Counted from the stretch's first letter, positions 225-20,000 are shown. The stretch is 20,000 bases of DNA from an uncultured virus (IMG/VR IMGVR_UViG_3300008107_000013) (IMGVR_UViG_3300008107_000013); one strand, 5' to 3'. Notes: a model not told the origin generated them from the sequence alone. Numbers and translations are program-made.

Positions 225-757
225 AGAGTCTCACCGCCGACGGTGCGGTTGCATGCACATAGTTCCCCAGTTTGAAGAGCATCTAAAACACGTAGCGTTT
301 CCTCAGGAGAACGTCCAACATTGAGATTGTTAACTGTTACATGTTGAATAACATTATCTGGGTCAACAATAAATGTAGCGCGCAATGCAGCACCCGCGGG
401 ATTATAAAATACACCAAGCTGTTCTATTAAAGATTTTTCCCAATTACGTTGGGTGTCAGCAAACTGGATGTGCCTAATTTTAGAAAGATCAGGATGAGCT
501 TTCTGCCATGCGAGCTTGCAGAACTCATTATCAGTGGAGCCGGTTAGTAGCACAGCATCCCTATCGGCAAAGTCTTGAAAAAGCTTATCATATGCTACAA
601 TCTCTGTCGGGCAGACAAATGTAAAGTCTTTAGGATAATAAACAATTATTTTCCACTTATAATCAAATGATTTTTCCGTAATGTCAAAAAACTGGTCGCT
701 ACCAGGATTCACTCCAGTTACTACAAAAGGTTCTAACTTATCGCCTACTGTTTTCAT
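221..757 (-). CDS. ahpC: 2-Cys peroxiredoxin AhpC
   Basis: YPKDFTFVCPTE peroxidatic motif, RATFIVDP, GRSPEETLRVLDALQTGELC; GGAG RBS. Confidence 0.96.
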   Translation of the reverse strand: MKTVGDKLEPFVVTGVNPGSDQFFDITEKSFDYKWKIIVYYPKDFTFVCPTEIVAYDKLFQDFADRDAVLLTGSTDNEFCKLAWQKAHPDLSKIRHIQFADTQRNWEKSLIEQLGVFYNPAGAALRATFIVDPDNVIQHVTVNNLNVGRSPEETLRVLDALQTGELCACNRTVGGETL

Positions 758-4469: not shown

Positions 4470-4759
4470 TCGATTAGGCGTATAGTACTTTCCGCTGCTT
4501 TCTGTAAAGGATGCTCTAGTCCTTTTTCTCTAAAGATAGCTGACTTAACCGATTCACAAATTAACCCTATGTCATAGTCATTTTTTAATTCAATAGTAAA
4601 TGTTTCCAAGCTTTGCATAAGACCCGAAACTACATTGTCAGTGATCGTATCAATAGCGTCTATTTTATTTTTTGTAACTTGATCTATTACTTTATCAACA
4701 GTAAGCTCGCCGTGTAGTGCGTCGGGAGCAGGGAACAATATTACATTATTTGCTCTCAT
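4466..4759 (-). CDS. Hypothetical protein (97 aa)
   Basis: NNVILFP N-terminus and HPLQ C-terminal motif; TAATG coupling with gmhA. Confidence 0.75.
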   Translation of the reverse strand: MRANNVILFPAPDALHGELTVDKVIDQVTKNKIDAIDTITDNVVSGLMQSLETFTIELKNDYDIGLICESVKSAIFREKGLEHPLQKAAESTIRLID

Positions 4760-5373
4760 TAAAAAACAACTTTCTCAACCGGTACTAACAAATGTTTTCT
4801 TCTAATATATTGTGCCATCGTATGCATTAAAGCTTGATGTGCATCTTCAACTATACCGTAATTATTATCTTTAACGTGCAAAAATATGTCGGCTTTTCTT
4901 TTAGCTTCTCCGCCATCAAACCCGACTAGTGCAATATTATACATTCCAAGGCTTGTAGCGGTATCTATAGCATTTAGAATATTTTTTGATTTTCCGCTAG
5001 ATGATATTGTAACTAAAACATCACCTTTGTTACCGAGATACATTAGTTGTTGTTTAAAAATCTCACTGTAGGAAATATCATTTGAAATAGCAGTAATTAA
5101 ACTCATATTACTTACCAGACTAATGACACGCGGAAATAAGGATGTATTAGTATTAATTCCTTTACAGTGGTCACAGGTAAAATGTTCGGAGATGGCGGCA
5201 GATCCGCCATTACCACACACAAATATTTGTTTGTTATTAATTATAGCATCTTCTAGTGTATGGGTAGCAAGATTAAATTGGAGGTCATCCACTGAGCTCA
5301 AAGCTATGTGGAGCTGGGAAGAATAAAAATCAAGTGCGTGACTTGGTTCGTTAAAACTTTGTTGTGTTGTCAT
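4759..5373 (-). CDS. gmhA: Sedoheptulose-7-phosphate isomerase (SIS fold)
   Basis: GNGGSAA, TAISND, ISSSGKSKN and GFDGG motifs. Confidence 0.9.
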   Translation of the reverse strand: MTTQQSFNEPSHALDFYSSQLHIALSSVDDLQFNLATHTLEDAIINNKQIFVCGNGGSAAISEHFTCDHCKGINTNTSLFPRVISLVSNMSLITAISNDISYSEIFKQQLMYLGNKGDVLVTISSSGKSKNILNAIDTATSLGMYNIALVGFDGGEAKRKADIFLHVKDNNYGIVEDAHQALMHTMAQYIRRKHLLVPVEKVVF

Positions 5374-6346
5374 AATACACTACCTCAGCACCTCGGTCAG
5401 AAAAATTAAAATTATCAAACAACTCAAAATTACTTAGTTTAGAAATAACTCGGTTTCGATATTTTGGCTTAACATAAAATAATAAGAACCCACCTCCACC
5501 AGCACCTAATATTTTACCACCTAGTGCTCCAGCTTTAATAGCCTCTTCGTATATATTATTAATACTTTCATTAGATATATTATCTGCTAGACTGCGTTTT
5601 AATTTCCAGCTTTCGTCTAATAGTTTACCAAAGTCGTCTAATTCATTCTTAACAAGCATGGACTGTCCTAGGTAGGCGTATTCAACCATTCTATGCTGCG
5701 TTTTCCATTTTTCGTCTGTCTTCATACCTTCGGCATGCTTACTCAAAATGTCATTGGCTGTACGCTTAACGCCTGTATATACCATAATAAGATTGTCTCT
5801 TAGCTCTTTTAATGTGCTGCTAGCAATATTAATAGGTGTAACGTTAACGCTTTCGGTCTTATTAAACTCTATTAGGTTAAACCCACCAAATGAAGCTGCG
5901 TACTGATCTTGCTTACCCAGCGTATCCCCGCACATTACTCTTTCAATATTAAACGCTGATTCTGCAAGCTCAAAACGGGTGTCACTTCCTCCCGTTGCGT
6001 GGTCTAGTGCTTTGCAAAGTGCTACGGTGTACGTTGAGGATGACCCAAGTCCGGTACCTTTAGTTGGTATTTCACAAAACGAAGATATTTCTATACCGGT
6101 TTGTATATCAAAATACTGTAATGTGTTTCTAGCTCTATCGTGATTTAATTCACTAATAATATCTACTTGTTCGACTCGCTCGTACGATACTTTAACTCCT
6201 CTATTTGGTGTTTTGTTGACAGCAAGGTACATATATTTGTCTATAGTGGTGCTTATAACTGCACCTTGTGAACTAGAATAAAATTCTGGAAGATCGCTAC
6301 CACCACCTAAAAAACTAATGCGCAGAGGCGCTCGGGCAAGTATCAT
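5351..6346 (-). CDS. hddA: D-glycero-D-manno-heptose 7-phosphate kinase (GHMP family)
   Basis: APLRISFLGGGSD, GTGLGSSS, GKQDQYAASFGG and GGKILGAGGGGF motifs. Confidence 0.88.
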   Translation of the reverse strand: MILARAPLRISFLGGGSDLPEFYSSSQGAVISTTIDKYMYLAVNKTPNRGVKVSYERVEQVDIISELNHDRARNTLQYFDIQTGIEISSFCEIPTKGTGLGSSSTYTVALCKALDHATGGSDTRFELAESAFNIERVMCGDTLGKQDQYAASFGGFNLIEFNKTESVNVTPINIASSTLKELRDNLIMVYTGVKRTANDILSKHAEGMKTDEKWKTQHRMVEYAYLGQSMLVKNELDDFGKLLDESWKLKRSLADNISNESINNIYEEAIKAGALGGKILGAGGGGFLLFYVKPKYRNRVISKLSNFELFDNFNFSDRGAEVVYYDNTTKF

Positions 6347-7335
6347 AGAGGATTATATGTAAATATCTGTGATTGTGTTTTCCTACTCTCAAGAGTAGGA
6401 TATTTGTCTTTAAGGCCTGTAAGAAGATCCTCCCACTGCTTAACTATTTTAACCCAAGAAAATCTACTATCAGCGTACGCTTTAGCAAAGTTTAAGTATT
6501 CCCGAGTATCATCTCTATCAACAATACCGATAGCGTGCTCAAGGGCACTATAAAAAATATTGCAGTGAGTATTAGGGTCATTATCTGATTGGTACATATA
6601 GGTCATGCCTCCGGCGGTATCTGGTAATCCTCCGTTATTAGAATGTACACAAAGTAGCTTGGCAGACATTGCTTCAATTAAACTTCTACTATTACATTCC
6701 ATCCAAATAGATGGGTAAGCAAAGATATGTGCTTTTAGTAAGTGATCTTTAACAACATCGTTAGGAGCAAACCCATGATATGTCATTTGAGGATGGTTGC
6801 GGATCTTCTCGTAAAGCGGTTCAAATTGTTTATCGGCGTCTGGCCACCCATAGATTTTAAAGCTAGAAAAAACATCAAGGTGAATGTTTTTGTACTTCTC
6901 AGCAAGCTTTTCAAAAACTGGTACTAGTAGTGAAAGCCCTCTTTGGGGGGTGGATGTGTAGATAAGTCTTATCTTATCGTATTCTTTACTAACGCTTGGT
7001 AGAGGATCGATAGGTGTTTCTAAAACTATATGATCTTTAGATGGAGGAATACCTAAAAAATCTTTGTAGCGGTTGTACTGCCAGTTACCGCAAAATACTA
7101 ACTTATGAAAACGACGCCTGCTATTTTCTTCTTTTAAGTGATTGGTTTCAGGGTCTTCTGGAAGATCGTGTAACCAATAAACTCTAATTTTATCTTCTTC
7201 AATTTTACGGATACGGGAGCATATAATTTGAAAATCATCTGCAAGACCTTCTGGTAATCTTTCTGCTAATCCTCTTTTTACACTCTCCGTACCACCTTGA
7301 CTATTTTTACTAATCTCATTTTCTTCAAACGCCAT
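6343..7335 (-). CDS. Glycosyltransferase, GT-B fold (GT4-like)
   Basis: GGTE, LIYTSTPQRGL, and YPSIWMECNSRSLIEAM (E-x7-E); start may instead be 7344. Confidence 0.88.
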   Translation of the reverse strand: MAFEENEISKNSQGGTESVKRGLAERLPEGLADDFQIICSRIRKIEEDKIRVYWLHDLPEDPETNHLKEENSRRRFHKLVFCGNWQYNRYKDFLGIPPSKDHIVLETPIDPLPSVSKEYDKIRLIYTSTPQRGLSLLVPVFEKLAEKYKNIHLDVFSSFKIYGWPDADKQFEPLYEKIRNHPQMTYHGFAPNDVVKDHLLKAHIFAYPSIWMECNSRSLIEAMSAKLLCVHSNNGGLPDTAGGMTYMYQSDNDPNTHCNIFYSALEHAIGIVDRDDTREYLNFAKAYADSRFSWVKIVKQWEDLLTGLKDKYPTLESRKTQSQIFTYNPL

Positions 7336-8320
7336 TTTTCTCATTCCATTTCATAGTATAGTAATCCCACGATGTTTTAATTATGCGATCAAGTTCACTA
7401 CTTTCGTAAATGAATGTATAGATGTTCAAAAATCTGTTTGCATCAGCAACGAGATATTCTGGATCACCGATCCTTCTTTCTCCTTCAATGACATTTACTT
7501 TCTCCCCTGTGACTCGTTCAAACATACTTACAATATCTCGAATTGTATGACCTTTAGTGGTGCCAAGGTTGCAAGTATCGTACGGGTTAGTTCCGGGGGT
7601 GGATGATTCCTCAAAGTATTTTTGCATATGGACGTGTGCTTTGCATACGTCTTTAACATGAATATAGTCTCTTACGCATGTACCATCTTTTGTATTGTAA
7701 TCCGTACCGTTGATAGTGAATGGTGTTTTTGTTTTAGCTGCAAAGCAAAGTCTTTGAATAACATGACCTGACTCAAGATGATCGCCTACCTCTCCATAAG
7801 CACCTGCAACATTAAAGTATCTAAATGTAAAGAAGTTAATGTTGGGGTACTCCGCTGCCACTATACTAATAAAATCTTCGGCGAGTTTTTTACTTCTACC
7901 GTATGGATGTATAGGTTCAATAAAATCATGTTCGTTAACAGGAGAGGACTTAAGACTGTATACACCTGCTGATGATGAAAATATAAAATTACCTTTCCAT
8001 CCTGTTGATATAAGTCCGTTAATTAGATTGATAGTTTCTGCAACGTTTGTTGAATAATATTTTGCTGGGTTGTTAAAACTATCCGGTACGCTTGCAATTG
8101 CTGCAAAATGATATACGGTGGTAGGCTTAAGAGCGGCAACCGCTGCAACTACTCCATCGCTTGCAAATGATCCTTTTACAAAGTTATCAACGTACGGATT
8201 TGAACCATCGACGATATCCACGCCGATAATTTTATCTCCCTTTTTATGGCTCTCTTCTTTATAGTACTTGCAAAAAGCTTTCCCAATGTAGCCATTACAG
8301 CCTGTTACTAGTATGGGCAC
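7325..8320 (-). CDS. galE: UDP-glucose 4-epimerase-like extended SDR
   Basis: TGCNGYIG, FSSSA, YGRSK, RYFNVAGA, DGTCVRDYIHV and RRIGDP motifs. Confidence 0.9.
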   Translation of the reverse strand: MPILVTGCNGYIGKAFCKYYKEESHKKGDKIIGVDIVDGSNPYVDNFVKGSFASDGVVAAVAALKPTTVYHFAAIASVPDSFNNPAKYYSTNVAETINLINGLISTGWKGNFIFSSSAGVYSLKSSPVNEHDFIEPIHPYGRSKKLAEDFISIVAAEYPNINFFTFRYFNVAGAYGEVGDHLESGHVIQRLCFAAKTKTPFTINGTDYNTKDGTCVRDYIHVKDVCKAHVHMQKYFEESSTPGTNPYDTCNLGTTKGHTIRDIVSMFERVTGEKVNVIEGERRIGDPEYLVADANRFLNIYTFIYESSELDRIIKTSWDYYTMKWNEKNGV

Positions 8321-8717
8321 TTATTCTTCTCCTTAGTTCTGAGGTACTAAAACCATGTTCACGGTTGTTAAAATAAAGTTCTATATTATTATCTAGGCAG
8401 TATTGTTTAGCGGTAAAATCGCGCCCGTGATAATCAGCACCAATAAATCTGACGTTAGGTTTGACCGATCTTAATATTTCTTCTATTTCGGTTTCGTACA
8501 CATATGGTACTATTTCATCTATGTATCTGCAAGAATTTAATTGTACATAGCGCTCAAACATGCTTTGAACTGGTTTGTTTTTTTCCTGCCTCTCTATTGA
8601 TGGATCTGCTTGTAATCCTACAATAAGATATTCACAATTCTGTTTGCATTCTCCAAACATTAAATTATGTCCGGCATGACATAAATCAAATGCGCCAAAT
8701 GTAATGCCTGTTTTCAA
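8295..8717 (-). CDS. TagD/RfaE-II-like cytidylyl/adenylyltransferase
   Basis: GAFDLCHAGH (HxGH), IGADY and REHGFSTS motifs. Confidence 0.88.
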   Translation of the reverse strand: MKTGITFGAFDLCHAGHNLMFGECKQNCEYLIVGLQADPSIERQEKNKPVQSMFERYVQLNSCRYIDEIVPYVYETEIEEILRSVKPNVRFIGADYHGRDFTAKQYCLDNNIELYFNNREHGFSTSELRRRISAHTSNRL

Positions 8718-9296: not shown

Positions 9297-9343
9297 AGTA
9301 TTTCCTTTCATAAGTTGAGTGGTTTATTTACTACCACCCTTTC

Positions 9344-9372
9344 AGTATAGTGGCCACTAATCAAAATATCAA
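9344..9372 (-). promoter_or_regulatory. sigma70-like promoter
   Basis: TTGATA-N17-TATACT. Confidence 0.78.
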
Positions 9373-9375
9373 GTA

Positions 9376-9540
9376 TTACTGTGTACCCTTTTGAAGGACG
9401 GTAAATTCATGTCTCTGACTAGAAATATCAGCAAGTATAAAACATTTTTTAATACGTTTAGCTGCAGCTTGATCCTTCATGCCAAGTAATATCCGTTTAT
9501 ATACTCTGGACATTTTATAATTTTTATCTGTTAGTTTCAT
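9376..9540 (-). CDS. Small basic hypothetical protein (54 aa)
   Basis: Manual translation MKLTDKNYKMSRVYKRILLGMKDQAAAKRIKKCFILADISSQRHEFTVLQKGTQ; ATGA overlap with the upstream ORF. Confidence 0.65.
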   Translation of the reverse strand: MKLTDKNYKMSRVYKRILLGMKDQAAAKRIKKCFILADISSQRHEFTVLQKGTQ

Positions 9541-9725
9541 TTATTTTTCACCTGAAAGTAAGAGTCCTTAGCGTATTTTAGTACGCGCCCGTTTTGTCTA
9601 ACTACAAAATAAAGTTTGCCCTCAATGACATCTTCATTGATAATATCACAAATAACGATCTCATTTGATAGTCTGTTTTTTAAACAAACATTAGTAATAG
9701 TTTTAAATTGTTTTCTATTGTTCAT
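9537..9725 (-). CDS. Hypothetical protein (62 aa)
   Basis: ATGA overlaps at both ends. Confidence 0.7.
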   Translation of the reverse strand: MNNRKQFKTITNVCLKNRLSNEIVICDIINEDVIEGKLYFVVRQNGRVLKYAKDSYFQVKNK

Positions 9726-10273
9726 GATCGGTTAAAGTGTAGACCAGCTTTTGTAACGTAATAGCTATCTATAATATCTGATACTGGGTTACTAGCTGAC
9801 TTTGATAATTTTAAATGGTTTCTTACATCAAATCCAGTTTCCATTAGAAACGATTCTTCCATGGCCTGTTTGTTAGAGTTACCCTTGCCTGTTGCAGTCT
9901 TTTTTATTACAGTTGGAGGAATAGTAGTAAAAGGTAATCCTTTTCTCCATAATAAGTATTTTAGTATGCCGCAATTCTCTGCAATATTAAATACTCTCCC
10001 CGTCGACGCAAAAGAATAATCTTCTATAAAAACATATTGAGGCATGTTGTCTGCTATCACCTGTATAATCCATTGAGATATGTGGTGATACCTTTCCTCA
10101 TTGGTTTTATAGGGAGGTATTAAAGTACCGTATGTGGGGTGTTTAGAGCAGGCGAGCTTTTCTACAGACGTGAGATAGAAAAAAGAACAGAAGTCTAAAC
10201 TAACTTCTGTACCTTCAAACAAGCAAATCGCCGGGCTTGTAAGTGATAGATCAATCCCTAATATCTTCGTCAT
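9722..10273 (-). CDS. RuvC-like Holliday junction resolvase
   Basis: ILGIDLSLT, VFIEDY, IKKTATGKGNSNK and SDIIDSY catalytic pattern. Confidence 0.88.
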   Translation of the reverse strand: MTKILGIDLSLTSPAICLFEGTEVSLDFCSFFYLTSVEKLACSKHPTYGTLIPPYKTNEERYHHISQWIIQVIADNMPQYVFIEDYSFASTGRVFNIAENCGILKYLLWRKGLPFTTIPPTVIKKTATGKGNSNKQAMEESFLMETGFDVRNHLKLSKSASNPVSDIIDSYYVTKAGLHFNRS

Positions 10274-10406: not shown

Positions 10407-10834
10407 ACAATCTCCTGAAAGGTGTCTATACCAGCTTTATGTAGCAGATCTAGTCCTTTAGTATCTCTATAACTATTTTTCCAATAGACTGATTTGATAC
10501 CAGCCTGTACGATCATTTTAGCGCACTCCACACACGGTGCATGCGTAAGAAACATGGTACTGTCTTGACCTGAGTTGCCCTGCCTGGCTAATTTACAAAT
10601 TGCATTTGCCTCGGCATGAATAACTTCTGGTTTGGTCACTAACTGCGGACCATCCTCATTAAGTAATTCTTCTTCACAGTTATTATCCATTCCAGCGGGC
10701 ATGCCGTTATAGCCGAAAGAAATAATATTTTGATCTTTGACTATAACGGCTCCTACTTTCAAGCGCCTTGCATGGGAAAGGTTGGCCGAGCTTTCAGCTA
10801 CGGTCATAAAAAAATTAACAAACTTCTGTTTCAT
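10403..10834 (-). CDS. cd: dCMP deaminase
   Basis: GYNG, HAEANAI and PCVEC zinc motifs. Confidence 0.93.
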   Translation of the reverse strand: MKQKFVNFFMTVAESSANLSHARRLKVGAVIVKDQNIISFGYNGMPAGMDNNCEEELLNEDGPQLVTKPEVIHAEANAICKLARQGNSGQDSTMFLTHAPCVECAKMIVQAGIKSVYWKNSYRDTKGLDLLHKAGIDTFQEIV

Positions 10835-11274
10835 TAATTACACCAGCTTTGTTTTGCCTCACCGTAATATTCTCTGGCAAAACCATTACGAATTAATTCC
10901 GCACGAAGACTTACACCATTCAAAATAATATCTCCCAATACACGACCACCGAACTTATCCCATCCGTATAAGGTGACCTGATGTTTCTGAGTAGAGGTGA
11001 CGGCCTGTTTTGTAAATGCTGATGCCATTTCTCCTCGTTGAGCCTCGCTTGGACATTGAGCGCGGTGTCCTTTTTCTGGGGTGTCAACTCCAAATATTCT
11101 GACCGCAAGTTCTGGCTTGAACGGCTTAGGAAGAAACGGCGCACTAATAACTATAGTGTCGCCGTCGTTTACCCTTAATATTTGAGCATCGTAAGTAACG
11201 CCCTGTGGCATCTTTTGGGCGTAGGTCGGAACAGTAACAGCAATAAGTAGTGCAATAAAGATATAAAGTTTCAT
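10834..11274 (-). CDS. Thermonuclease (SNase-like) with N-terminal signal peptide
   Basis: DGDT, RIFGVDTPE and DKFGGRVLG motifs; TAAGGA RBS before MKLYIFIALLIAVTVPTYA. Confidence 0.88.
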   Translation of the reverse strand: MKLYIFIALLIAVTVPTYAQKMPQGVTYDAQILRVNDGDTIVISAPFLPKPFKPELAVRIFGVDTPEKGHRAQCPSEAQRGEMASAFTKQAVTSTQKHQVTLYGWDKFGGRVLGDIILNGVSLRAELIRNGFAREYYGEAKQSWCN

Positions 11275-11275
11275 T

Positions 11276-11470
11276 TTAGTCCTTACGTTTTGATTGTTTA
11301 AAGTAATCACACCAACCTTCTGGAGAGATGGGCCCTGATACAGCTGAGCATGCGTTGGGAGGTCTCCACATTGTACACTCTGAGCATTTTTGATTCCCTT
11401 TAGGTTTATCCTGATATTTGGCTTCTAATTTAGAATCTTTTCCTTCAGTAAATTGTTGAAAGCTTTTCAT
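11276..11470 (-). CDS. HiPIP-like [4Fe-4S] protein
   Basis: KYQDKP..QKCSEC..W....ACSAVSGPISPEGWCDYF matches the four-Cys HiPIP pattern. Confidence 0.85.
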   Translation of the reverse strand: MKSFQQFTEGKDSKLEAKYQDKPKGNQKCSECTMWRPPNACSAVSGPISPEGWCDYFKQSKRKD

Positions 11471-12450
11471 GCTGCTTTACCCCACACCTCACCCCAGTTA
11501 CCTGACAATGCGCCTTTAGCATAATCAGTAGCTCTATTCTCAAAAAAGTTAGTATGAGTAGGAGCGTTGATCATCTCTTCAACCCAAGGTAGAGGGTTCT
11601 TTTTAACTTTAAAAATACCTTTCATGCCCATGGAGATAAGACGTCTGTCAGCAATGTAACGGATGTACGTTTTTACTTGCTCGGGTGTTAAATTTTCCAT
11701 TGGTCCAATATCAAAAGCAAGGTCAATAAACTTGTCTTCTAGCTCAACCATTTTTTCAGCAATAACATATATCTTGGATTTTAAATTATCATTCCATATC
11801 TCATTATTTTCTTGAATGTAGGTCTTAAAAAGTTTAATCATGTTCTCTGTATGCATAGTTTCGTCTACGATAGACCAGGTAACTATTTGTCCCATACCTT
11901 TCATCTTTCCATGTCGAGGAAAGTTTAGTAGCATAATGAATGAAGAAAATAGTTGCATACCCTCGGTAAAAGCTGAAAACACGGCAATATGGGTTGCTGT
12001 ATTTTCTTTAGTTGTATTCTGCCCAGATAGATCTAAAACGTACTCATGCTTTTCTCTCATCTCTTGATACTCCATAAACTGGGAGTAAGTTACTTCTGGT
12101 AACCCAAGTGTCTCTATTAAGTGTGAGTAAGCAGCAATATGAAGCGCCTCTCTTGCGGCAAATCCCATAAGCATCATTCTAATTTCTGGCTGAGGGAAGT
12201 AAGGTAAGTAATTTTTAACGTATCCACCAGCTACGTCAATATCACCTTGAGTAAAGAACCTAAAGATGTTTGTAAGGAATTGTTTTTCCGAAGGAGTTAA
12301 TTTCTTTTTCCAATCCTTAACATCTTCCAGCATAGGTACTTCAGTATGAAGCCAATGAGATTGTTCGTGCTTGAGCCATGCATCGTAGGCCCAGGGGTAA
12401 TGAAATGGTTTAAATGCATTTCTCTCATCGGTCATCTTTAGCTTTGTCAT
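11467..12450 (-). CDS. nrdB: Ribonucleotide reductase class Ia beta subunit
   Basis: FFTQGD, EALHIAAY (radical Tyr), EGMQLF, DETMH and NFFENRATDY motifs. Confidence 0.97.
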   Translation of the reverse strand: MTKLKMTDERNAFKPFHYPWAYDAWLKHEQSHWLHTEVPMLEDVKDWKKKLTPSEKQFLTNIFRFFTQGDIDVAGGYVKNYLPYFPQPEIRMMLMGFAAREALHIAAYSHLIETLGLPEVTYSQFMEYQEMREKHEYVLDLSGQNTTKENTATHIAVFSAFTEGMQLFSSFIMLLNFPRHGKMKGMGQIVTWSIVDETMHTENMIKLFKTYIQENNEIWNDNLKSKIYVIAEKMVELEDKFIDLAFDIGPMENLTPEQVKTYIRYIADRRLISMGMKGIFKVKKNPLPWVEEMINAPTHTNFFENRATDYAKGALSGNWGEVWGKAA

Positions 12451-12478: not shown

Positions 12479-13090
12479 TTATTTATTTTTGATCCAAAAA
12501 CCTAATCTATCACCAGCCGGGCTATAATACCACGACCACCCTGTGGGGGTAATCATAGAGTCTCCTCGCCAAACTGGTACGATCTCATCAGAGTCATGAT
12601 TAGCAAAATCATCATTATAACGTAAATGTACTTCAATTACTTTATTACCAATATACTCAACATTAATCCATTCCTGGTAATACTTAAGATCGTAAAGCAT
12701 TGCAGGCAGTGGCATATTTAATTCTACCTTACACCATCGAGAAAATCGATCTAGTCTGTTAGGATCGTTTCGAAACCCCTGTACAGTTAAATGCTGATGA
12801 CCCCAATGGTAGTCTACTGATACGTGAGGACCTTTTAGTATCTCTGACCAAAAGAATCCGTCTGGAACAGCACTAGTATCTCCTTGCTCAATTCTTTTTA
12901 TTTGAGCTCCTCGACCCATCATGTAAATATTTGTAATAGGTCTAACTATATAATCTCCAGATACAGGTACTGGTATGCCGGCTGGTGCGGCTCGCACCCC
13001 TTGTCGACGAGCAACTATAAGTTTATCATAAACCCACAACCACTGCGGCTGACAAGATTCATATACATCGCAATCGCTGATAAGCTGCAT
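12479..13090 (-). CDS. Hypothetical protein, ATP-grasp-like
   Basis: DKL, YIVRP..N..MMGRGA, WSEILKG.HVSVD and INVEY...KVIEVHLR resemble ATP-grasp motifs. Confidence 0.6.
   Translation of the reverse strand: MQLISDCDVYESCQPQWLWVYDKLIVARRQGVRAAPAGIPVPVSGDYIVRPITNIYMMGRGAQIKRIEQGDTSAVPDGFFWSEILKGPHVSVDYHWGHQHLTVQGFRNDPNRLDRFSRWCKVELNMPLPAMLYDLKYYQEWINVEYIGNKVIEVHLRYNDDFANHDSDEIVPVWRGDSMITPTGWSWYYSPAGDRLGFWIKNK
12480..12487 (-). promoter_or_regulatory. Possible T4-type late promoter
   Basis: AATAAATA (cf. T4 TATAAATA) about 30 nt upstream of nrdB, overlapping the upstream stop codon. Confidence 0.35.
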
Positions 13091-13105: not shown

Positions 13106-14902
13106 TCATCCTTCACAAGCAAGACAGGTATCACCTTCTGTTAGTGCTCTAAGATCGATCTCCTTGATTACTTCTCTTTCTATTTTCTTTGCTACTTTGT
13201 CGGCCTTGGCCAGTTTTTCACTACGACAATAATATAATGTTTTTAATCCACGTTTCCAGGCCATAAAGTGTACAGCGTGTAAGTACTTGATGTTTACGTC
13301 TGGCCTGAAAAAGAGGTTAAGGGATTGTGCTTGGTCAATGTAATCTTGTCTGTCAGCTGCGTGCTCCACAAGCCATCTTTGGTCAATCTCCATACTCGTT
13401 TTGAATACGTCTTTTGTCCAGTCATCAAGGAAATTAAGGTGCTGAACTGATCCGTCGTTTGCAATGATACTTGACCAGGTTTCATCGTAGTCCAAAGAGG
13501 TGTCCTCATTGCATTTCTCCCTAATAATTTTATCCAGCCATCGATTTTTATTTAATGATGACCCTGAAAGTGTATCTTGCCTGTAGGCGTTAGCCCGAAA
13601 AGGTTCAATCGACGGCGATGTATTTCCCATAATAATTGAACTAGAAGCATTAGGTGCAATAGCCAGCATGTGACTAAATCTATATCCGGTGCCTTGGGCG
13701 TCGGGAGCTTCCCCTCTCTCTTTTCCTAGATAGATGTTTGCTTGATCAAGCATTGCTCTAATATGTTTGAATATCTGTTTATTTCTACTTACTGCTAAAG
13801 CTGACTCCCACGGTAGATTGTTTCGTTGAAGGTAGGCGTGCCATCCAAGGGCACCAATACCGATAGAACGCTCACGCATTGCTGAATACTTAGCCCTGGA
13901 GACTTGCTCGGGGGCGTTGTCAATAAAGTATTGCAGAACGTTGTCAAGCATCTCGGCCATATCTCGAAGAAATATTGGATCGTCTTTCCACTCATCATAA
14001 TACTCTAAATTCAAAGATGATAGGCAGCATACGGCCGTTCTATCTTTATCAGTTGGTAGAATAATTTCACTACAAAGATTTGACTGCTTAATAGACAGAC
14101 CTAACTTCTTTTGAAACTCTGGCATCATCCTATTAGACGTATCAATAAAGTGTAAGTATGGTTCCCCAGTCTGCATTCTCATTTCTAAAATACGTTGCCA
14201 TAGTTCTTTGGCCGATATCTTATCCCTTACCTCACCGTTGTGTGGATCTTTTAGTTCCCAAGTATCATCACAGTGGGGGTCAATCATGCACTTTTCTAAC
14301 AGCAACATAAAATCGTCAGTAATGTTGATACCATGATGTAGGTTGAGCGTTCTCATATTAGGATCGCCCGTTGGCTTTCTCATCTCAAGAAAAATAAGAA
14401 TATCAGGATGAGAAATATCCAAATAAGCGGCATAAGAACCCCTACGCGTTCTCCCCTGTCTATAAGCCAGGCTAGAAGCATCGTAAGTACGAAGATGAGG
14501 CATAACCCCAACAGATTTATCGTCTGCCGAACGAATTCCAATACCGATTCCAACACCACCTCCTAACATCGATAACCAATTTACCTCCGAGAGACAATCC
14601 ACCAACCCTTCTGCAGAATCGTGCAAGTACGGTAGAAAGCACGAGATAGGCAGACCCCGATTAGACCGACCAAAGCTAAGAATGGGAGTAGAGTAAGAAA
14701 GCCAATGTCTAGAAGAATACTCATATAGCCTTTGCGCATGAGCTTGGTTCGTCCCAAAAGATTTAGATACATAAGCAAACCTTTCTTGAGGAGAGGTTTC
14801 GTCCTCTCTCATATAACTTTCTTTTAAACGTTTAAGCCCTAGTTCGTCAAATAATGAATCGCGGGAATAATCAACTTTGATGCCGTGAACTAGTTCTTCC
14901 AT
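13106..14902 (-). CDS. nrdA: Ribonucleotide reductase class Ia alpha subunit (short, no ATP cone)
   Basis: PISCF, QSNLCSEI, VCCLSS, IAPNASSS, KTLYY and C-terminal CLACEG. Confidence 0.97.
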   Translation of the reverse strand: MEELVHGIKVDYSRDSLFDELGLKRLKESYMREDETSPQERFAYVSKSFGTNQAHAQRLYEYSSRHWLSYSTPILSFGRSNRGLPISCFLPYLHDSAEGLVDCLSEVNWLSMLGGGVGIGIGIRSADDKSVGVMPHLRTYDASSLAYRQGRTRRGSYAAYLDISHPDILIFLEMRKPTGDPNMRTLNLHHGINITDDFMLLLEKCMIDPHCDDTWELKDPHNGEVRDKISAKELWQRILEMRMQTGEPYLHFIDTSNRMMPEFQKKLGLSIKQSNLCSEIILPTDKDRTAVCCLSSLNLEYYDEWKDDPIFLRDMAEMLDNVLQYFIDNAPEQVSRAKYSAMRERSIGIGALGWHAYLQRNNLPWESALAVSRNKQIFKHIRAMLDQANIYLGKERGEAPDAQGTGYRFSHMLAIAPNASSSIIMGNTSPSIEPFRANAYRQDTLSGSSLNKNRWLDKIIREKCNEDTSLDYDETWSSIIANDGSVQHLNFLDDWTKDVFKTSMEIDQRWLVEHAADRQDYIDQAQSLNLFFRPDVNIKYLHAVHFMAWKRGLKTLYYCRSEKLAKADKVAKKIEREVIKEIDLRALTEGDTCLACEG

Positions 14903-14922
14903 CTATTACCTCTTTATAATTT

Positions 14923-15603
14923 TTATTGTTTAATTTTGTCAATTACTGGAAATACATTACGAATAACTTTTGCACATTCTTTGGCTATTTCGATGTGTTC
15001 AAGTTGAGTGCCGTGGGCCGAACGTAGTTGAATGTAGTGAATCCATGATCTAATCGTACCATTGACATACAGTCTGGATACGGTATTACCTTCCGGGAGC
15101 ACACTGCGAGCTTGTTCTTTGGCAATCCCTTTTTCGATTGCCCAGGTATATATTTCTTTTGATTTTTCAATTAAACTCTTCTGCAATATTTCCCACTGAT
15201 AGGCAATCTTAATTTGTTCGTCATTACTTTCATCTATGGGGATGGAGTTTTGACGGTTACTATGGTCTTGAAACCTGCATTCTCTAAGAACAAAATCGAG
15301 CTCTCTAACTGGGTCACTATATCGTTGAGAGAACTCTTGGAATGAGAAACTTCTATGTCTGAGGATTTGTCTGGCAATATCTCTGGTGGTGGTGATTTCG
15401 AGACAGGCGTTGACCATTTCAAGGGGTGACCAATGTTGGTTTCGGATAAGGTATTGGATGAGTTTTTCTGATGTTTCTGTATTGGACTGATTGGCTGGAT
15501 TGGAAACCCGTGCACAGAATGCAGCAAGGTCCTGAACACTTGATAGGGTACACTCATCTAACTCTCCTGACTGGGTGGTATAGCTGATCAATCTTACTTT
15601 CAT
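14923..15603 (-). CDS. thyX: Flavin-dependent thymidylate synthase
   Basis: ARVS, HWSPLE and RHRSFSFQEFSQRY signature; likely start MKVRL with ATGA overlap on the primase stop. Confidence 0.96.
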   Translation of the reverse strand: MKVRLISYTTQSGELDECTLSSVQDLAAFCARVSNPANQSNTETSEKLIQYLIRNQHWSPLEMVNACLEITTTRDIARQILRHRSFSFQEFSQRYSDPVRELDFVLRECRFQDHSNRQNSIPIDESNDEQIKIAYQWEILQKSLIEKSKEIYTWAIEKGIAKEQARSVLPEGNTVSRLYVNGTIRSWIHYIQLRSAHGTQLEHIEIAKECAKVIRNVFPVIDKIKQ

Positions 15604-16946: not shown

Positions 16947-16954
16947 TATTTATT
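16947..16954 (-). promoter_or_regulatory. Possible T4-type late promoter
   Basis: AATAAATA overlapping the tail fibre stop codon, 20 nt upstream of the next ATG. Confidence 0.45.
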
Positions 16955-19900
16955 ATTTTGTTATAAGGGCTGATATTGGCGCGGTAAAGTTTGCTGTGTA
17001 GCGCGCGACCCCTTTTGTGATGCGTAGGTCGTCTATGTAGCCGTTGAGGTAACTTGTATTTGTGGAACTTGCGTTGACACCAATCCAAGGTCTGTTTCCA
17101 GTGTTTAGATAGTTGGTGCTGTCTGTGTATGTAGAACCTATTTGCACACCATTGAGGAACAGTTTTGTATTCGTACCTGAGCGACACAAAGCAATGTGAT
17201 ACCAAGTTGATGTAGATAAAACAGCGGTGCCACTAGTTATTCTGTCAGCACCATTTACCCAGTAATATAAAAATCCGCTAATAAAATACAGCATTGGATA
17301 CGCACCGTTTGTACCGGCAGGCCTTCCGTCATAGAACACGGAGTTAGTGACTGAGTTTGTATATAACCACATTTCAATCGTGAAGTCGCCAGTGCCAAAC
17401 GCAAAGTCTGTTGGGTTTCCAGTCAGCGTTAGGTAATCCCCAGTGCCATCAAAGTACATAGCACCCGAACCATATTTTTTAGTGTTTGTACTTACTCTTG
17501 CATCACCAACACATTCTAAGACGTTTCTTCCTGTTATGTCAACGATCCCACCATGATTAAACGGCATGTTAAGAATTAAACCATGAGTTGATGAACTTGT
17601 TCGTGAACCTTTTCTTATTTCTAGATCAGCAACATATGCTGCAGATGCATACGTTGCAGTTTGACCATAGCTTCCTATACCGAGCGCTGACTGAGAAAGG
17701 TCTGTGCTAACTGTAGCTGATGCTTGAAACTTTTCATTTACCCACAAATAGGCTACATTAGATATTCTTTCAATTCTAACTTTTACCCATTGCCCTAAAA
17801 AATTTCCTCCGGGGATTGAAGTAGAGGTAACAGAAGCAGCTGCCAAATTATTTACTCGAAAATCAAGGTAGGTATTGTCACCTAAATTAAAAGCCCAGGA
17901 GCCAGTAGAATTACCAGTACCTATAATGTAACCGGTGGTTATAAGATACATGTAAAAACTTATTTCAAAATCGCTAGTACCTAACACCATGTTGGTATTG
18001 GATATAGCCAAATAATCCGAACCATCTAGATAAACGCTACCCTTGTGAGTAGCAGGTGCATATTCTTGTAAGAGCGTTGTATACTCGCCAAAAGGATTAA
18101 ACTTCTTAACGTGCACATTACCTAAAGGAATAATTGTACGCAAACTAGTAGAGTTATCAACTAGGGTTGACGTCTGGCAAGTAAGAAGCTGGGTATTAGA
18201 AACGGCTGTTAATTGAGCCGTAGGAGGGGTAAAATTAGATGTATACTGAGCAGTCCCGTTTATTAGTCTAACGTTAGAGATGTACCCGTTCATATAAAAT
18301 CCATTATATGAAAGATAAAATCTTCCAACTACTGCACTTGTTGCGGTAATACTTGCTGATGAGGTATCAGAATCAACTGATGTTCCGTTAACATACAAAT
18401 TTAATGTTGATCCGTTCCTTACAAAAGCAATATGATACCACGTTTTAAGTGAGAGGGGGGTAGCGCTGTTTAAAAACGTAGCACTGTTACCTCTTCCTAC
18501 AAACCCTTGAACAGTATTATCATTAATAATTGATAAATTAATTCCAACTCCAGACGTGTCTTCCGTAGAAGAATAAACTCCCATATAAGAACTACCGACA
18601 CTGAGATACACCCATGCTTCTACTGTGAAAGAATTAGTGCCAACGGCCGTAGCAGTAGTTGATAGATAGTCGCCCGTACCATCAAAATATACACTATGGG
18701 TATTGGCTGTTATAGTATGAGATTTAAACGGGGAGAACGAAGCGATCTTTACATCATTATACTTTGTAATAGCAAGATTATTAGGTCCGTCATCCTCAAT
18801 TGTATTTGATCTTAATATTAAAAGCTGTGTGTTACTAACCGGTGCTAGGGGAGATATTTCTGGAGTAAAAGTAGTGGTGTAAAGTGCATTACCTTTTATA
18901 ATGCGTAAATTTGAAATGTAACCGGTTGCCATCTCTGTTGATCCGTTATAGCTACCAATATATAAAAGTTTATTTAAGGAAATGTTTTGTGTCTGAGACG
19001 TTTGAGTGTTAGCAACCGCACCGTTTAAAAATAATCTACCAGTAGTTCCACTTCTTGTAAGCGCAATATGATTCCATGTATTAAGAGAAAGAGCAGTGTT
19101 ACCTGTATACACTGTTCCCGAAGAAGTTGCTACTGTTCTCAAAAAAGCTATTGGATAGTAAACTCCTCCAGAATTTGTTATACCTACGTAACATACTGCT
19201 GTATCTGAACCATCAAATTGATAGGAATACATGCGAGCAACACCTCCAGAAGAAAGTGCAGCTGTTTGATTCACCCAGAACTCAACTGTAAAATCACCGG
19301 TTCCAAAGTTAAATCCTTCGTTGTTTGATAATGTTAAATAGTCACCCGTACCATCAAAGTATCCTGACCACCCTGTAGGAGAAAATGGAGAAAAAGAACC
19401 TTGAGAGGCGTTGCCCGATCTTGTTACAATATTTCTATGACCAGATTCATCTACAAATGTATGGTTATTGATTGATTGAAAATTTTGTAATGTTAACACC
19501 GCAGTATTTGCAACGGCTGTTAATTGAGATGTGGGAGGAGTGAAATTAGATGTATAAAGAGAAGTGCCTCTAACATATCTAAAATTAGACATATAACCTG
19601 CTACTGGTTCTGCTCCGTTGCTTTGTGCTCCAAGCATTAAAGGATTAGCCTGATCAACTAAAGACACACCTGCACTTGATAGTGTTATAGTTATTCCTAA
19701 AACACCATTTAAAAATCCTTTTACAGTTTGTCCAGATCTTGTTATTGCAACGTGATTCCATGCGTTCAATGTCATTGTACCCAATGAATAATTACTATTT
19801 ACGCCATGTACATCCCAAGCTGATCCAGTATAACTAAGAAAGATATAAAATCCAAGATTGCGTTGAGCAAAGTAAAAGGCACCATAACCTATTCCATTTT

Positions 19901-20000
19901 TACTAAACCACGCATAATATGTATTACTTGCATTAGATGTTGGATATATCCATGCCTCTATTGTCCAATCTAGATTGCTAGGTTCTAAAGCAGCATTGTC
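16953..20000 (-). CDS. Multi-LamG/concanavalin-like domain virion (tail fibre/adhesin) protein, 5'-truncated by the window
   Basis: Repeated YFDGTGDYL, DFTxExW, WxHIAxxR and GYISNxR modules. The frame stays open to 20000 (DNAALEPSNLDWTIEAWIYP...), so the track's TTG start at 19784 is internal. Confidence 0.9.
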   Translation of the reverse strand, partial: DNAALEPSNLDWTIEAWIYPTSNASNTYYAWFSKNGIGYGAFYFAQRNLGFYIFLSYTGSAWDVHGVNSNYSLGTMTLNAWNHVAITRSGQTVKGFLNGVLGITITLSSAGVSLVDQANPLMLGAQSNGAEPVAGYMSNFRYVRGTSLYTSNFTPPTSQLTAVANTAVLTLQNFQSINNHTFVDESGHRNIVTRSGNASQGSFSPFSPTGWSGYFDGTGDYLTLSNNEGFNFGTGDFTVEFWVNQTAALSSGGVARMYSYQFDGSDTAVCYVGITNSGGVYYPIAFLRTVATSSGTVYTGNTALSLNTWNHIALTRSGTTGRLFLNGAVANTQTSQTQNISLNKLLYIGSYNGSTEMATGYISNLRIIKGNALYTTTFTPEISPLAPVSNTQLLILRSNTIEDDGPNNLAITKYNDVKIASFSPFKSHTITANTHSVYFDGTGDYLSTTATAVGTNSFTVEAWVYLSVGSSYMGVYSSTEDTSGVGINLSIINDNTVQGFVGRGNSATFLNSATPLSLKTWYHIAFVRNGSTLNLYVNGTSVDSDTSSASITATSAVVGRFYLSYNGFYMNGYISNVRLINGTAQYTSNFTPPTAQLTAVSNTQLLTCQTSTLVDNSTSLRTIIPLGNVHVKKFNPFGEYTTLLQEYAPATHKGSVYLDGSDYLAISNTNMVLGTSDFEISFYMYLITTGYIIGTGNSTGSWAFNLGDNTYLDFRVNNLAAASVTSTSIPGGNFLGQWVKVRIERISNVAYLWVNEKFQASATVSTDLSQSALGIGSYGQTATYASAAYVADLEIRKGSRTSSSTHGLILNMPFNHGGIVDITGRNVLECVGDARVSTNTKKYGSGAMYFDGTGDYLTLTGNPTDFAFGTGDFTIEMWLYTNSVTNSVFYDGRPAGTNGAYPMLYFISGFLYYWVNGADRITSGTAVLSTSTWYHIALCRSGTNTKLFLNGVQIGSTYTDSTNYLNTGNRPWIGVNASSTNTSYLNGYIDDLRITKGVARYTANFTAPISALITK
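18201..18245. repeat. Direct repeat copy 1 within the LamG gene
   Basis: 40/45 nt identical to 19512-19556 (encodes YTSNFTPPTxQLTAV). Confidence 0.85.
19512..19556. repeat. Direct repeat copy 2 within the LamG gene
   Basis: 40/45 nt identical to 18201-18245. Confidence 0.85.

What the first reader, a model, noticed from the sequence alone, without database searches (positions are those of the whole stretch)
11276..11470. HiPIP iron-sulfur protein with a T4-style capsid-targeting leader in place of a Tat signal
Seen: a complete four-Cys HiPIP core preceded only by MKSFQQFTE-G, with no twin-arginine or hydrophobic segment. Known: bacterial HiPIPs are Tat-exported periplasmic electron carriers. 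T4 internal head proteins begin with a capsid-targeting sequence (IPIII MKTYQEFIAE) that the gp21 protease cleaves after Glu. Inference: this may be a redox [4Fe-4S] protein packaged in the head and ejected into the host, or protecting the virion.
Basis: partly seen in the sequence, partly recalled or inferred. Interest (0 to 1): 0.85.

Follow-up and report, generated by a model that had tools for sequence, protein, structure and literature searches.

The report
Phage mini-HiPIP with capsid-targeting-like tag
A T4-like water phage encodes a tiny iron-sulfur electron-carrier protein that has lost its bacterial export signal and instead starts with a short peptide like the one phage T4 uses to load proteins into its head, so it may be carried in the virus particle, though no experiment shows this yet.

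Summary
Window 11276-11470 (minus strand) is a 64-residue ORF. Residues 11-57 align without gaps to PioC, the 54-residue solved HiPIP (E 5e-11), with all four Cys, Tyr19 and the GWC motif. A confident model (pLDDT 87.6) matches HiPIP structures only. There is no twin-arginine motif and no hydrophobic segment.

The first nine residues (MKSFQQFTE) are conserved in close homologues. They lie outside the predicted fold and resemble the T4 capsid-targeting sequence, with aromatics at the targeting positions 4 and 7.

Packaging is inferred, not shown. Related near-complete genomes all encode a gp21-type prohead protease. In phage S-SRM01 eight other proteins, mostly unrelated, carry the same tag. 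Elsewhere the HiPIP domain is fused to head proteins (MuF, portal-MuF) and to wall hydrolases.

Three points count against it here. The window's tag has Phe, not Leu/Ile, at the cleavage position. The gene overlaps nrdB in a nucleotide-metabolism operon. No late promoter precedes it.

This scan reached the same reading earlier on other genomes. New here: the carrier is probably not a cyanophage, and an nrdB-linked rival was tested and weakened.

HiPIP identity about 0.9; head packaging about 0.5.

The parts
11276..11470 (-). 64-aa ORF: N-terminal tag, PioC-type HiPIP core and a short basic tail (KQSKRKD); pI 9.0
11444..11470 (-). Codons 1-9, MKSFQQFTE: capsid-targeting-like tag, with Phe at positions 4 and 7 and Glu at 9
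   Evidence: Conserved in P0001-P0003 and L004. Residues 1-10 have mean pLDDT 58 against about 95 for the core. Best match to the T4 CTS among 233 ATG starts in the window. The most similar T4 N-terminus is that of IPI.
11300..11440 (-). Residues 11-57: HiPIP core. Cys ligands are C29 (11384-11386), C32 (11375-11377), C41 (11348-11350) and C54 (11309-11311). Tyr19 is at 11414-11416 and Trp53 at 11312-11314.
   Evidence: Ungapped alignment to PioC 6xyv, E 5e-11. Y19, C29, C32 and C41 are invariant in 123 sequences; W53 and C54 are at 90% or more. Foldseek: 18 of 19 matches are HiPIPs.
11467..12450 (-). nrdB (class I ribonucleotide reductase small subunit); its TGA stop overlaps the HiPIP ATG (ATGA)
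   Evidence: Pfam Ribonuc_red_sm E 9.6e-74; overlap read
10834..11274 (-). Next gene in the operon: a staphylococcal-nuclease-like protein with a signal-peptide-like N-terminus. Its ATG lies 1 nt after the HiPIP stop.
   Evidence: Pfam SNase E 9.4e-11; start read

Best explanation
The ORF encodes a PioC-type minimal HiPIP, a roughly 50-residue domain that holds one [4Fe-4S] cluster on C29, C32, C41 and C54, shielded by Tyr19 and Trp53. It is made in the host cytoplasm by a T4-like phage and is not exported, because the Tat signal of its bacterial relatives is gone.

In place of that signal it carries a nine-residue N-terminal tag (MKSFQQFTE) of the type that T4 uses as a capsid-targeting sequence.

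The most likely mechanism has these steps:
1. The host Fe-S machinery loads the cluster.
2. The tag docks the folded, basic (pI 9) protein onto the scaffolding core of the assembling prohead.
3. The gp21-type prohead protease may trim the tag after Glu9.
4. The 55-residue protein stays among the packaged DNA and leaves with it at the next infection.

Shown by computation: HiPIP homology and fold, absence of an export signal, conservation and separability of the tag, and a gp21-type protease with a conserved L-x-E capsid-protein site in related genomes.

Inferred: cluster binding, targeting, cleavage, ejection, and what the protein does after ejection. Candidates for that last step are a one-electron redox partner at the start of infection or simply iron-bearing, DNA-associated cargo.
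For: HiPIP identity:
- The window protein hits PioC 6xyv at E 5e-11. A 40-sequence profile hits it at 1.3e-18, followed by other HiPIPs.
- The AF2 model built on 123 sequences has pLDDT 87.6, with the core near 95.
- In Foldseek, 18 of 19 PDB matches are HiPIPs. 1isu gives TM 0.71/0.73 and rmsd 1.1 A; PioC gives TM 0.68/0.79.
- The family is large: 1391 representatives at E<=1e-3. Of the 150 listed, 61 carry Tat-like signals and 21 carry tag-like N-termini by my rule.

Tag as a separable signal:
- It is conserved in P0001-P0003, L004 and S-SRM01.
- Residues 1-10 have low confidence in the model (mean pLDDT 58).
- In P0026, P0130 and P0036 the tag sits at the far N-terminus, with another domain between it and the HiPIP domain.
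- T4 literature: the CTS is MKTYQEFIAE (passage, bioRxiv 10.1101/2021.01.19.427310). Residues 4 and 7 carry targeting, residues 8 and 10 carry processing, and gp21 cuts after L/I-x-E (passages, PMC9026906).
- Of 802 first-ATG ORFs in T4, the N-terminus nearest to the window's is IPI. Those nearest to S-SRM01's are IPII and IPIII.

The same tag on other proteins:
- S-SRM01: 8 of 1101 first-ATG ORFs and 0 of 1298 internal ATGs match a strict pattern. Eight other genes score 25-34 against the tag; two of these (82315 and 83142) look like paralogues. The maximum among 1031 internal-Met decamers is 24.
- G002, the 163.5-kb relative of the window phage: the three best matches to the T4 CTS among 465 ORFs are an 88-aa protein with pI 10.4 (MLRYKEFISE), a 106-aa neighbour (MIRYKDFISE) and the HiPIP.

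Protease:
- PF03420 is found in G002 and S-SRM01 and in G004 and G019. That is 4 of 4 near-complete genomes carrying the HiPIP. T4 served as positive control.
- The gp23 propeptide site aligned to T4's LTE|A reads LFE|A in G002 and LSE|A in S-SRM01.

Fusions to virion proteins (30 long family members scanned):
- Phage_Mu_F in 2 (P0043, P0082). P0082 is portal + MuF + a C-terminal HiPIP domain.
- GH19 in 3, one of them with LysM as well.
- MuF is a head protein that carries delivered effector domains (passages, PMC5512222).
- In L049, tagged neighbours of the HiPIP gene are a phage lysozyme with a peptidoglycan-binding domain, and a second peptidoglycan-binding protein.
Against: - No virion proteome, cleavage or metal data exist for any carrier. 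Only S-SRM01, of 50,697 phage records, has the gene, and its paper reports no proteomics (passages).
- The window's tag has Phe at the P3 position (F-T-E) and Glu at 9. This is not the L/I-x-E that the lineage's own gp23 site keeps.
- Its score against the T4 CTS (23) is below a T4 false positive (28).
- The gene overlaps the nrdB stop, and no terminator or promoter signal lies between them.
- No NATAAATA lies within 250 nt upstream in 5 of 5 genomes checked. TATAAATA does precede gp23 and other late genes of G002 (6 of 226 genes).
- In G019 and G004 the similar N-termini nearby belong partly to paralogous gene families, so likeness there may be common descent and not a shared signal.
- The window (20 kb) and its near-identical record G001 (18.6 kb) hold no protease gene. 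The link to the protease therefore rests on a relative whose HiPIP is 77% identical.
Confidence: 0.5

Rival explanations
1. It is a cytoplasmic auxiliary redox protein that works during infection, and the N-terminal peptide has no targeting role. It would be co-expressed with NrdB and pass single electrons to or from di-iron enzymes (ribonucleotide reductase R2, fatty-acid desaturase) or another phage or host redox partner. This would make it a functional analogue of the YfaE ferredoxin encoded beside E. coli nrdB.
For: - The start codon overlaps the nrdB stop, with no promoter or terminator signal between the genes and no late promoter.
- In L004 the gene follows a FA_desaturase gene that itself follows nrdB.
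- The window also encodes AhpC, ThyX and NrdA.
Against: - nrdB lies within 2 kb of the HiPIP gene in only 3 of 24 loci, all close relatives of the window. In L003 a phosphoesterase and a glycosyltransferase sit between them. In S-SRM01, G004 and G019 the gene is elsewhere.
- HiPIPs work at +50 to +500 mV (abstract of PMC7462912, seen in the listing). Reduction of diferric R2 or of desaturases needs low-potential donors (recalled knowledge; the YfaE work is recalled and was not read here).
- This reading does not explain a conserved, separable tag or the fusions to MuF and portal proteins.
Confidence: 0.25
2. It is packaged, but the metal site is structural. The four-Cys domain (Fe-S or zinc) would serve only as a very small, oxygen-stable, basic module that fills the head, neutralises DNA charge or stabilises larger ejected proteins. 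It would have no electron-transfer role.
For: - The protein has pI 9.0 and a lysine- and arginine-rich tail.
- The domain appears as one module among many in long modular phage proteins and in wall hydrolases.
- T4 internal proteins are small, basic and embedded in the DNA (passages, PMC3012670).
Against: - Tyr19 is invariant and Trp53 is conserved in at least 90% of 123 sequences. I recall both as cluster-shielding residues of redox-active HiPIPs. This argues that the cluster environment, and not just the four Cys, is under selection.
- The Tat-type relatives are just as basic (median pI 8.8 against 9.1), so charge does not mark out the phage forms.
Confidence: 0.15
3. The tag-like N-terminus is a by-product of phage codon and translation-start preferences (A-rich early codons, 'MK...') or of common descent. 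It is not a signal of any kind.
For: - 'MK' starts are common.
- The window's own score against the T4 CTS is within the range of false positives.
- Paralogous families in G019 share their N-termini.
Against: - The strict pattern matches 0 of 1298 internal ATG starts in S-SRM01 but 8 of 1101 first ATGs. Most of the rest of these proteins are unrelated by eye, and none matches a shared Pfam or PHROG family at E<=0.01.
- The aromatic pair at positions 4 and 7 followed by Glu is kept while neighbouring residues vary.
Confidence: 0.08

Closest known systems
PioC of Rhodopseudomonas palustris TIE-1 (PDB 6xyv), the 54-residue HiPIP of the pio photoferrotrophy operon
   Same: Same minimal HiPIP core: an ungapped alignment over 47 residues at E 5e-11, with all four Cys, the Tyr and the GWC motif. 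The predicted fold has TM 0.68/0.79 to 6xyv.
   Different: PioC is one of three proteins of the pio operon (abstract of PMC10304953). That it is Tat-exported to the periplasm and shuttles electrons to the reaction centre is recalled. The phage protein has no signal peptide. It carries a nine-residue tag and a basic tail, and it is encoded by a virus beside nrdB.
[quoted passage not shown]
   Same: A short N-terminal peptide with aromatic residues at positions 4 and 7 followed by Glu, on a small basic protein. It occurs in phages that encode a gp21-type protease and keep an L-x-E site in gp23.
   Different: The cargo is a metal-cluster redox domain of bacterial periplasmic origin, not an anti-restriction or DNA-binding protein. 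The window's tag has F-T-E with Glu at 9. The gene is in a nucleotide-metabolism operon without a late promoter. Nothing here is experimentally shown.
MuF (SPP1 gp7 / Mu gp30) head proteins with fused C-terminal effector domains
   Same: In P0082 (portal + MuF + HiPIP) and P0043 (MuF with a HiPIP domain) the same domain occupies the place of delivered cargo. MuF is described as a head component fused to delivered effectors (passages, PMC5512222).
   Different: Those are covalent fusions in phages with other head-assembly systems. The window protein stands alone and would depend on a peptide tag. Neither 'HiPIP' nor 'iron-sulfur' occurs in that paper.
YfaE, the [2Fe-2S] ferredoxin encoded next to nrdB in E. 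coli (recalled, not read here)
   Same: A small Fe-S protein gene directly downstream of nrdB in the same operon.
   Different: It has a different fold and cluster type and, by expectation, a far lower potential. The linkage to nrdB is not conserved in the phage family (3 of 24 loci).

Membership tests
HiPIP (Pfam PF01355; PioC-type minimal subgroup) | Four Cys ligands in the order C-x2-C-x(8-16)-C-x(12-13)-C, aligned to those of a solved HiPIP | tested here: met
   C29-x2-C32-x8-C41-x12-C54 aligns without gaps to PioC. C29, C32 and C41 are invariant and C54 is at 90% or more in 123 sequences.
HiPIP (Pfam PF01355; PioC-type minimal subgroup) | Score at or above Pfam's gathering threshold (22 bits) | tested here: not met
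   The window protein scores 20.4 bits, E 6.4e-4. Homologues in L004 and S-SRM01 reach 23.3 and 23.7. Of the 30 long family members, 18 have HIPIP hits at E<=1e-3. The shortfall is small and is outweighed by the PDB match.
HiPIP (Pfam PF01355; PioC-type minimal subgroup) | Conserved aromatic residues around the cluster (the Tyr before the first Cys; Trp in GWC). Their shielding role is recalled. | tested here: met
   Y19 is invariant; G52 and W53 are at 90% or more.
HiPIP (Pfam PF01355; PioC-type minimal subgroup) | HiPIP three-dimensional fold | tested here: met
   AF2 pLDDT 87.6. In Foldseek, 18 of 19 PDB matches are HiPIPs, the best being 1isu at TM 0.71/0.73 and rmsd 1.1 A. This is a predicted model, not a solved structure.
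HiPIP (Pfam PF01355; PioC-type minimal subgroup) | Binds a [4Fe-4S] cluster that cycles 3+/2+ at positive potential | not testable with these tools
   Needs recombinant protein, UV-visible and EPR spectra, and voltammetry.
HiPIP (Pfam PF01355; PioC-type minimal subgroup) | Tat signal and periplasmic location (typical biology, not a fold criterion) | tested here: not met
   No RR and no hydrophobic run longer than 1 in residues 1-28. Of the 150 listed family representatives, 61 do have Tat-like signals.
T4-type capsid-targeted internal head protein | N-terminal peptide of about 10 residues like MKTYQEFIAE, with the targeting determinants at positions 4 and 7 | tested here: met
   F4 and F7 are present. 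The ORF is the best of 233 ATG starts in the window against the T4 CTS. The nearest T4 N-terminus is IPI. The determinants are from PMC9026906. The window's score alone (23) is not above the T4 false-positive level (28).
T4-type capsid-targeted internal head protein | Prohead-protease site L/I-x-E ending the tag | tested here: not met
   The window has F7-T8-E9. The homologue in S-SRM01 has L8-F9-E10, and many other family members have [LI]-x-E. The lineage's gp23 site keeps L-x-E.
T4-type capsid-targeted internal head protein | The genome encodes a gp21-type protease (Peptidase_S77) and a T4-type head | tested here: inconclusive
   Present in the relatives G002, S-SRM01, G004 and G019. The gp23 of G002 is 37.6% identical to that of T4. 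The window and G001 are fragments that lack the head module.
T4-type capsid-targeted internal head protein | The same tag on several unrelated proteins of one genome | tested here: inconclusive
   Met in S-SRM01 (8 others, two of them apparent paralogues) and in G002 (2 others). Within the 20-kb window only this ORF has it.
T4-type capsid-targeted internal head protein | Physical presence in virions with a processed N-terminus | not testable with these tools
   I found no proteome for any carrier phage.
YfaE-like R2-maintenance ferredoxin | Conserved linkage to nrdB and a low-potential [2Fe-2S] ferredoxin fold | tested here: not met
   Linkage occurs in 3 of 24 loci only, and the fold is HiPIP.

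The most novel reading that the evidence does not exclude
T4-like phages of lakes and seas, not only cyanophages, load an oxygen-stable [4Fe-4S] HiPIP into their heads through a capsid-targeting tag and inject it with the DNA.

The same domain has been taken up repeatedly as virion cargo: as a free tagged protein, as a MuF or portal-MuF fusion, and as the N-terminal module of ejected wall hydrolases.

At T4-like internal-protein copy numbers, such virions would carry hundreds to more than a thousand iron atoms each. They would also deliver a ready one-electron redox agent at the first moment of infection.
Probability: 0.35. Interest if true: 0.8.

Novelty: new variant of a known kind. Interest (0 to 1): 0.6.

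Why it matters
If the protein is packaged, it would be the first metal-cluster electron carrier known as phage head cargo.

It would widen the idea of injected phage proteins from enzymes and anti-restriction factors to redox cofactors.

It would also give a concrete, countable source of iron inside aquatic virus particles. That bears on the proposal that viruses hold part of the colloidal iron pool (the 'Ferrojan Horse' hypothesis, known to me here only from the abstract of bioRxiv 10.1101/674382).

It would show that T4's capsid-targeting tag can be read from sequence far outside the coliphages, so that head cargo could be predicted in uncultured phages.

If it is not packaged, it is still a Tat-less cytoplasmic HiPIP used by a virus. 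I found no report of that either: the search 'HiPIP' + 'bacteriophage' gave 16 papers, and none of the 15 listed concerns a phage-encoded HiPIP by title or abstract. The search 'capsid targeting' + 'cyanophage' gave one T4 review.

Tried and rejected
- AF2 with the 40-sequence alignment gave pLDDT 54 and was not used. The 123-sequence alignment was needed.
- The search for related loci with alignment A1 was not possible because no stretch was conserved enough. Single proteins were used instead.
- PHROGs gave nothing for the ORF. For the S-SRM01 tag-bearing proteins it gave only one family of unknown function. Pfam gave nothing useful for them or for the two CTS-like small proteins of G002.
- No whole genome is held for the window. 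The nearest record, G001, is an 18.6-kb fragment.
- The search for a cultured carrier with a virion proteome failed. tblastn with three different family members found the HiPIP domain only in S-SRM01; P0032's unrelated C-terminal part also matched Flavobacterium phages. The S-SRM01 paper has no mass spectrometry (its supplements were not read).
- The 102-aa tagged protein of S-SRM01 has homologues in 135 cyanophage records. All 40 listed are annotated as hypothetical, so annotation gave no virion evidence.
- Charge does not separate phage forms from Tat forms in a useful way (median +4 against +3).
- The family tree has only 45 columns and 3 well-supported branches. It shows that tagged forms cluster (10 changes against 27.6 in shuffles) but not one origin (quick method; the careful search did not finish).
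- The sigma-70 and terminator scan found nothing above chance for promoters, and no terminator between nrdB and the ORF.
- The nrdB-partner idea was considered and marked down.
- A membrane-anchoring role for the tag was rejected because nine mostly polar residues are too few.

Full report
**What is there.** Window 11276-11470 (minus strand) is a 64-residue ORF, MKSFQQFTEGKDSKLEAKYQDKPKGNQKCSECTMWRPPNACSAVSGPISPEGWCDYFKQSKRKD. Its ATG is the first possible start after the upstream stop and overlaps the TGA of nrdB as ATGA. The next gene, a nuclease of the staphylococcal type with a signal-peptide-like start, begins 1 nt after its stop.

The 20-kb window reads as a phage nucleotide-metabolism and replication block, all on one strand. 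It holds thyX, nrdA, an unknown 203-aa gene, nrdB, this ORF, the nuclease, dCMP deaminase, a RuvC-like gene, a sugar-nucleotide cluster, T4-type RNase H and AhpC. Close homologues of the same 64-residue length are 91, 77 and 75% identical. Against the L004 copy, 19 codons differ synonymously and 15 non-synonymously. The gene is therefore real and under selection.

**Is it a HiPIP?** Pfam alone is borderline: 20.4 bits against a cut-off of 22. Homologues pass the cut-off. The other evidence is stronger.
- The protein alone matches PioC (PDB 6xyv, 54 residues) at E 5e-11, residues 11-57 against 4-50 without a gap.
- A 40-sequence profile matches PioC at 1.3e-18, and then other HiPIPs.
- An exhaustive phmmer search found 1391 representatives at E<=1e-3.
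- In an alignment of 123 of them, Y19, C29, C32 and C41 are invariant. P23, P38, V44, G46, G52, W53 and C54 are at 90% or more.
- With that alignment AlphaFold gives pLDDT 87.6, with residues 11-60 near 95.
- In Foldseek against the PDB, 18 of 19 matches are HiPIPs. 1isu gives TM 0.71/0.73 and rmsd 1.1 A; PioC gives 0.68/0.79.

Cluster binding itself cannot be tested here.

**The export signal is gone.** Residues 1-28 hold no RR and no hydrophobic run longer than one residue. Among the 150 best family representatives, my rule-based sorting gives:
- 61 with Tat-like signals;
- 21 tag-like (one looks false by eye, and two more were missed because of upstream or GTG starts);
- 6 with no extension;
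- 26 with short other extensions;
- 33 with long other N-termini;
- 3 without the core pattern.

A quick and weakly supported tree puts tagged and bare forms together, apart from most Tat forms.

**The tag.** The T4 capsid-targeting sequence is MKTYQEFIAE. Residues 4 and 7 carry targeting, residues 8 and 10 carry processing, and gp21 cuts after L/I-x-E.

The window protein has F4, F7 and E9. Close homologues read MKTYTQFNE, MKSYKLFSE and MKSYTQFNE. The S-SRM01 homologue reads MKSFQEFLFE, which fits the T4 pattern position by position. Other viral loci show MKSFKEYLTE, MRFIEFISE, MESFRSFLEE, MNFKRIFESLLTE and MKIEDLFEEK. In each case the stretch K-x-SK-xx-A-x-Y follows, which is where mature PioC begins.

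Two results show the tag is not part of the HiPIP fold. It is not packed in the model, where residues 1-10 have mean pLDDT 58. In P0026, P0130 and P0036 it sits at the far N-terminus with another domain between it and the HiPIP domain.

**Controls.** In T4 my strict pattern finds IPII, IPIII and gp61.1 among 802 first-ATG ORFs, and no internal ATG. The T4 N-terminus most like the window's is IPI. With the T4 CTS as the query:
- The window ORF is the best of 233 ATG starts (23, next 19).
- In G002 the top three of 465 are an 88-aa protein of pI 10.4 (MLRYKEFISE), its 106-aa neighbour and the HiPIP (31, 27, 26, then 19).
- In S-SRM01 the top nine of 788 are the MK[ST]F.QF set, with the HiPIP best (35).
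- A T4 protein that is not a known internal protein scores 28, so the window's 23 is not convincing by itself.

**Related genomes.**
- The window's own genome is not held.
- G002 is 163.5 kb and 93% complete, and its HiPIP is 77% identical. It has a Peptidase_S77 (gp21-type) gene, as do S-SRM01, G004 (330 kb) and G019 (218 kb). That is 4 of 4 near-complete carriers. Of the 22 further records searched, most of them small fragments, 3 have the protease gene. T4 was the positive control.
- The gp23 site aligned to T4's LTE|A is LFE|A in G002 and LSE|A in S-SRM01.
- The gp23 of G002 is nearest to Stenotrophomonas phage DLP6 (68.5%), then to OM43, Pelagibacter, Sinorhizobium and cyanobacterial T4-like phages (about 62-63%).
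- G002, G004 and G019 have no psbA. This carrier is therefore probably not a cyanophage.

**Shared tags and fusions.**
- In S-SRM01, 8 of 1101 first-ATG ORFs and 0 of 1298 internal ATGs match the strict pattern.
- Eight other genes there score 25-34 against the HiPIP's tag, against a maximum of 24 in 1031 internal-Met decamers. Two of them (82315 and 83142) look like paralogues.
- One of these genes lies directly after gp23 and another lies before the tail-sheath genes.
- Of 30 long family members, 2 carry Phage_Mu_F (one being portal + MuF + a C-terminal HiPIP) and 3 carry GH19, one of them with LysM.
- MuF is a head component known to carry delivered effector domains.
- In L049, tagged neighbours of the HiPIP gene are a lysozyme with a peptidoglycan-binding domain, a second peptidoglycan-binding protein, and a 1148-aa protein.

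**What speaks against packaging here.**
- The window's tag ends F-T-E, not L/I-x-E.
- The gene is coupled to nrdB.
- No NATAAATA lies within 250 nt upstream in any of 5 genomes, although TATAAATA precedes gp23 and other late genes of G002.
- In G019 and G004 some similar N-termini belong to paralogue families.
- No proteome exists for any carrier.

**The nrdB rival.** A YfaE-like role is suggested by position. However, nrdB lies within 2 kb in only 3 of 24 loci, all close kin of the window. Other genes are inserted between the two in L003 and L004. The HiPIP potential range of +50 to +500 mV (abstract) also suits a donor to di-iron sites poorly; that last point rests on recalled knowledge.

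**Earlier notes.** After I had formed this reading, the scan's index showed five earlier notes of the same kind of protein on other genomes, and two notes of CTS-like tags on many phage proteins. They agree with this report but are not independent evidence.

**Verdict.**
- A PioC-type HiPIP without an export signal: about 0.9.
- Loaded into the head by a CTS-like tag: about 0.5.
- Cleavage after Glu9: less likely than targeting.
- Function after delivery: unknown.

Noticed in passing
window 10834-11274 (-): A staphylococcal-nuclease-like protein with a signal-peptide-like start (MKLYIFIALLIAVTVPTYAQ) lies directly after the HiPIP gene. It may be an exported phage nuclease.
   Followed up: no
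L004 9262-9996 (+): In the 163.5-kb relative, a membrane fatty-acid desaturase gene (Pfam FA_desaturase, E 1.4e-12) sits between nrdB and the HiPIP gene. In L003 a calcineurin-like phosphoesterase and a GT4 glycosyltransferase occupy that place instead. The site downstream of nrdB therefore looks like an insertion hot spot.
   Followed up: partly
G002 85244-85510 (-) (= L013 9244-9510) and G004 9307-9903 (+): An 88-aa protein of pI 10.4 starts with a near-canonical T4-type tag (MLRYKEFISE). Its C-terminal motif (RRRSFRARHNC...ARYWSCRAW) is shared with a 198-aa protein of G004. It is a good candidate internal head protein, and Pfam has no family for it.
   Followed up: partly
T4 record NC_000866, 18966-19130 (-), gene 61.1: The 54-aa hypothetical protein gp61.1 of T4 starts MKTFKEFIKE. 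After IPII and IPIII it is the closest match to the capsid-targeting sequence in the genome, and it lies in an early region next to the primase gene.
   Followed up: no
P0015, P0016, P0024, P0027, P0035, P0036, P0039, P0056; loci L044-L052: Long modular phage proteins pair the N-terminal HiPIP domain with recurring modules. These are 'GRIVKGVNTTVDVGPNEI..KFGN' and a C-terminal 'RYTLKEWAI.GGHSLEE...KLFDW.KY', with variable domains in between (GH19, a HAD-like domain and others). The middle module is widespread in viral contigs: 92 of 98 candidate stretches were confirmed as relatives of P0039.
   Followed up: partly
G019 195315-199008 (-): A tandem family of about ten small paralogous genes has N-termini MSFK.F.ES or MYFNQ.VLEAL and a shared C-terminus ...DSFGGLLDVL. 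It lies 2 kb from the HiPIP gene.
   Followed up: no
window 12479-13090 (-): A 203-aa ORF with no Pfam family sits between nrdA and nrdB. By eye, a G004 protein (14499-15095) looks similar; the two were not aligned.
   Followed up: no
window 4759-8717 (-) and 221-757 (-): There is a sugar-nucleotide/heptose-type cluster (SIS isomerase, GHMP kinase, GT1 glycosyltransferase, NAD epimerase, cytidylyltransferase). There is also an AhpC/TSA peroxiredoxin, both in a phage replication region.
   Followed up: no
window 16953-20000 (-): A protein of more than 940 residues has four Laminin_G_3 (concanavalin-like lectin) repeats, E 9.4e-72. It runs off the window end and is probably a fibre or adhesin.
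   Followed up: no
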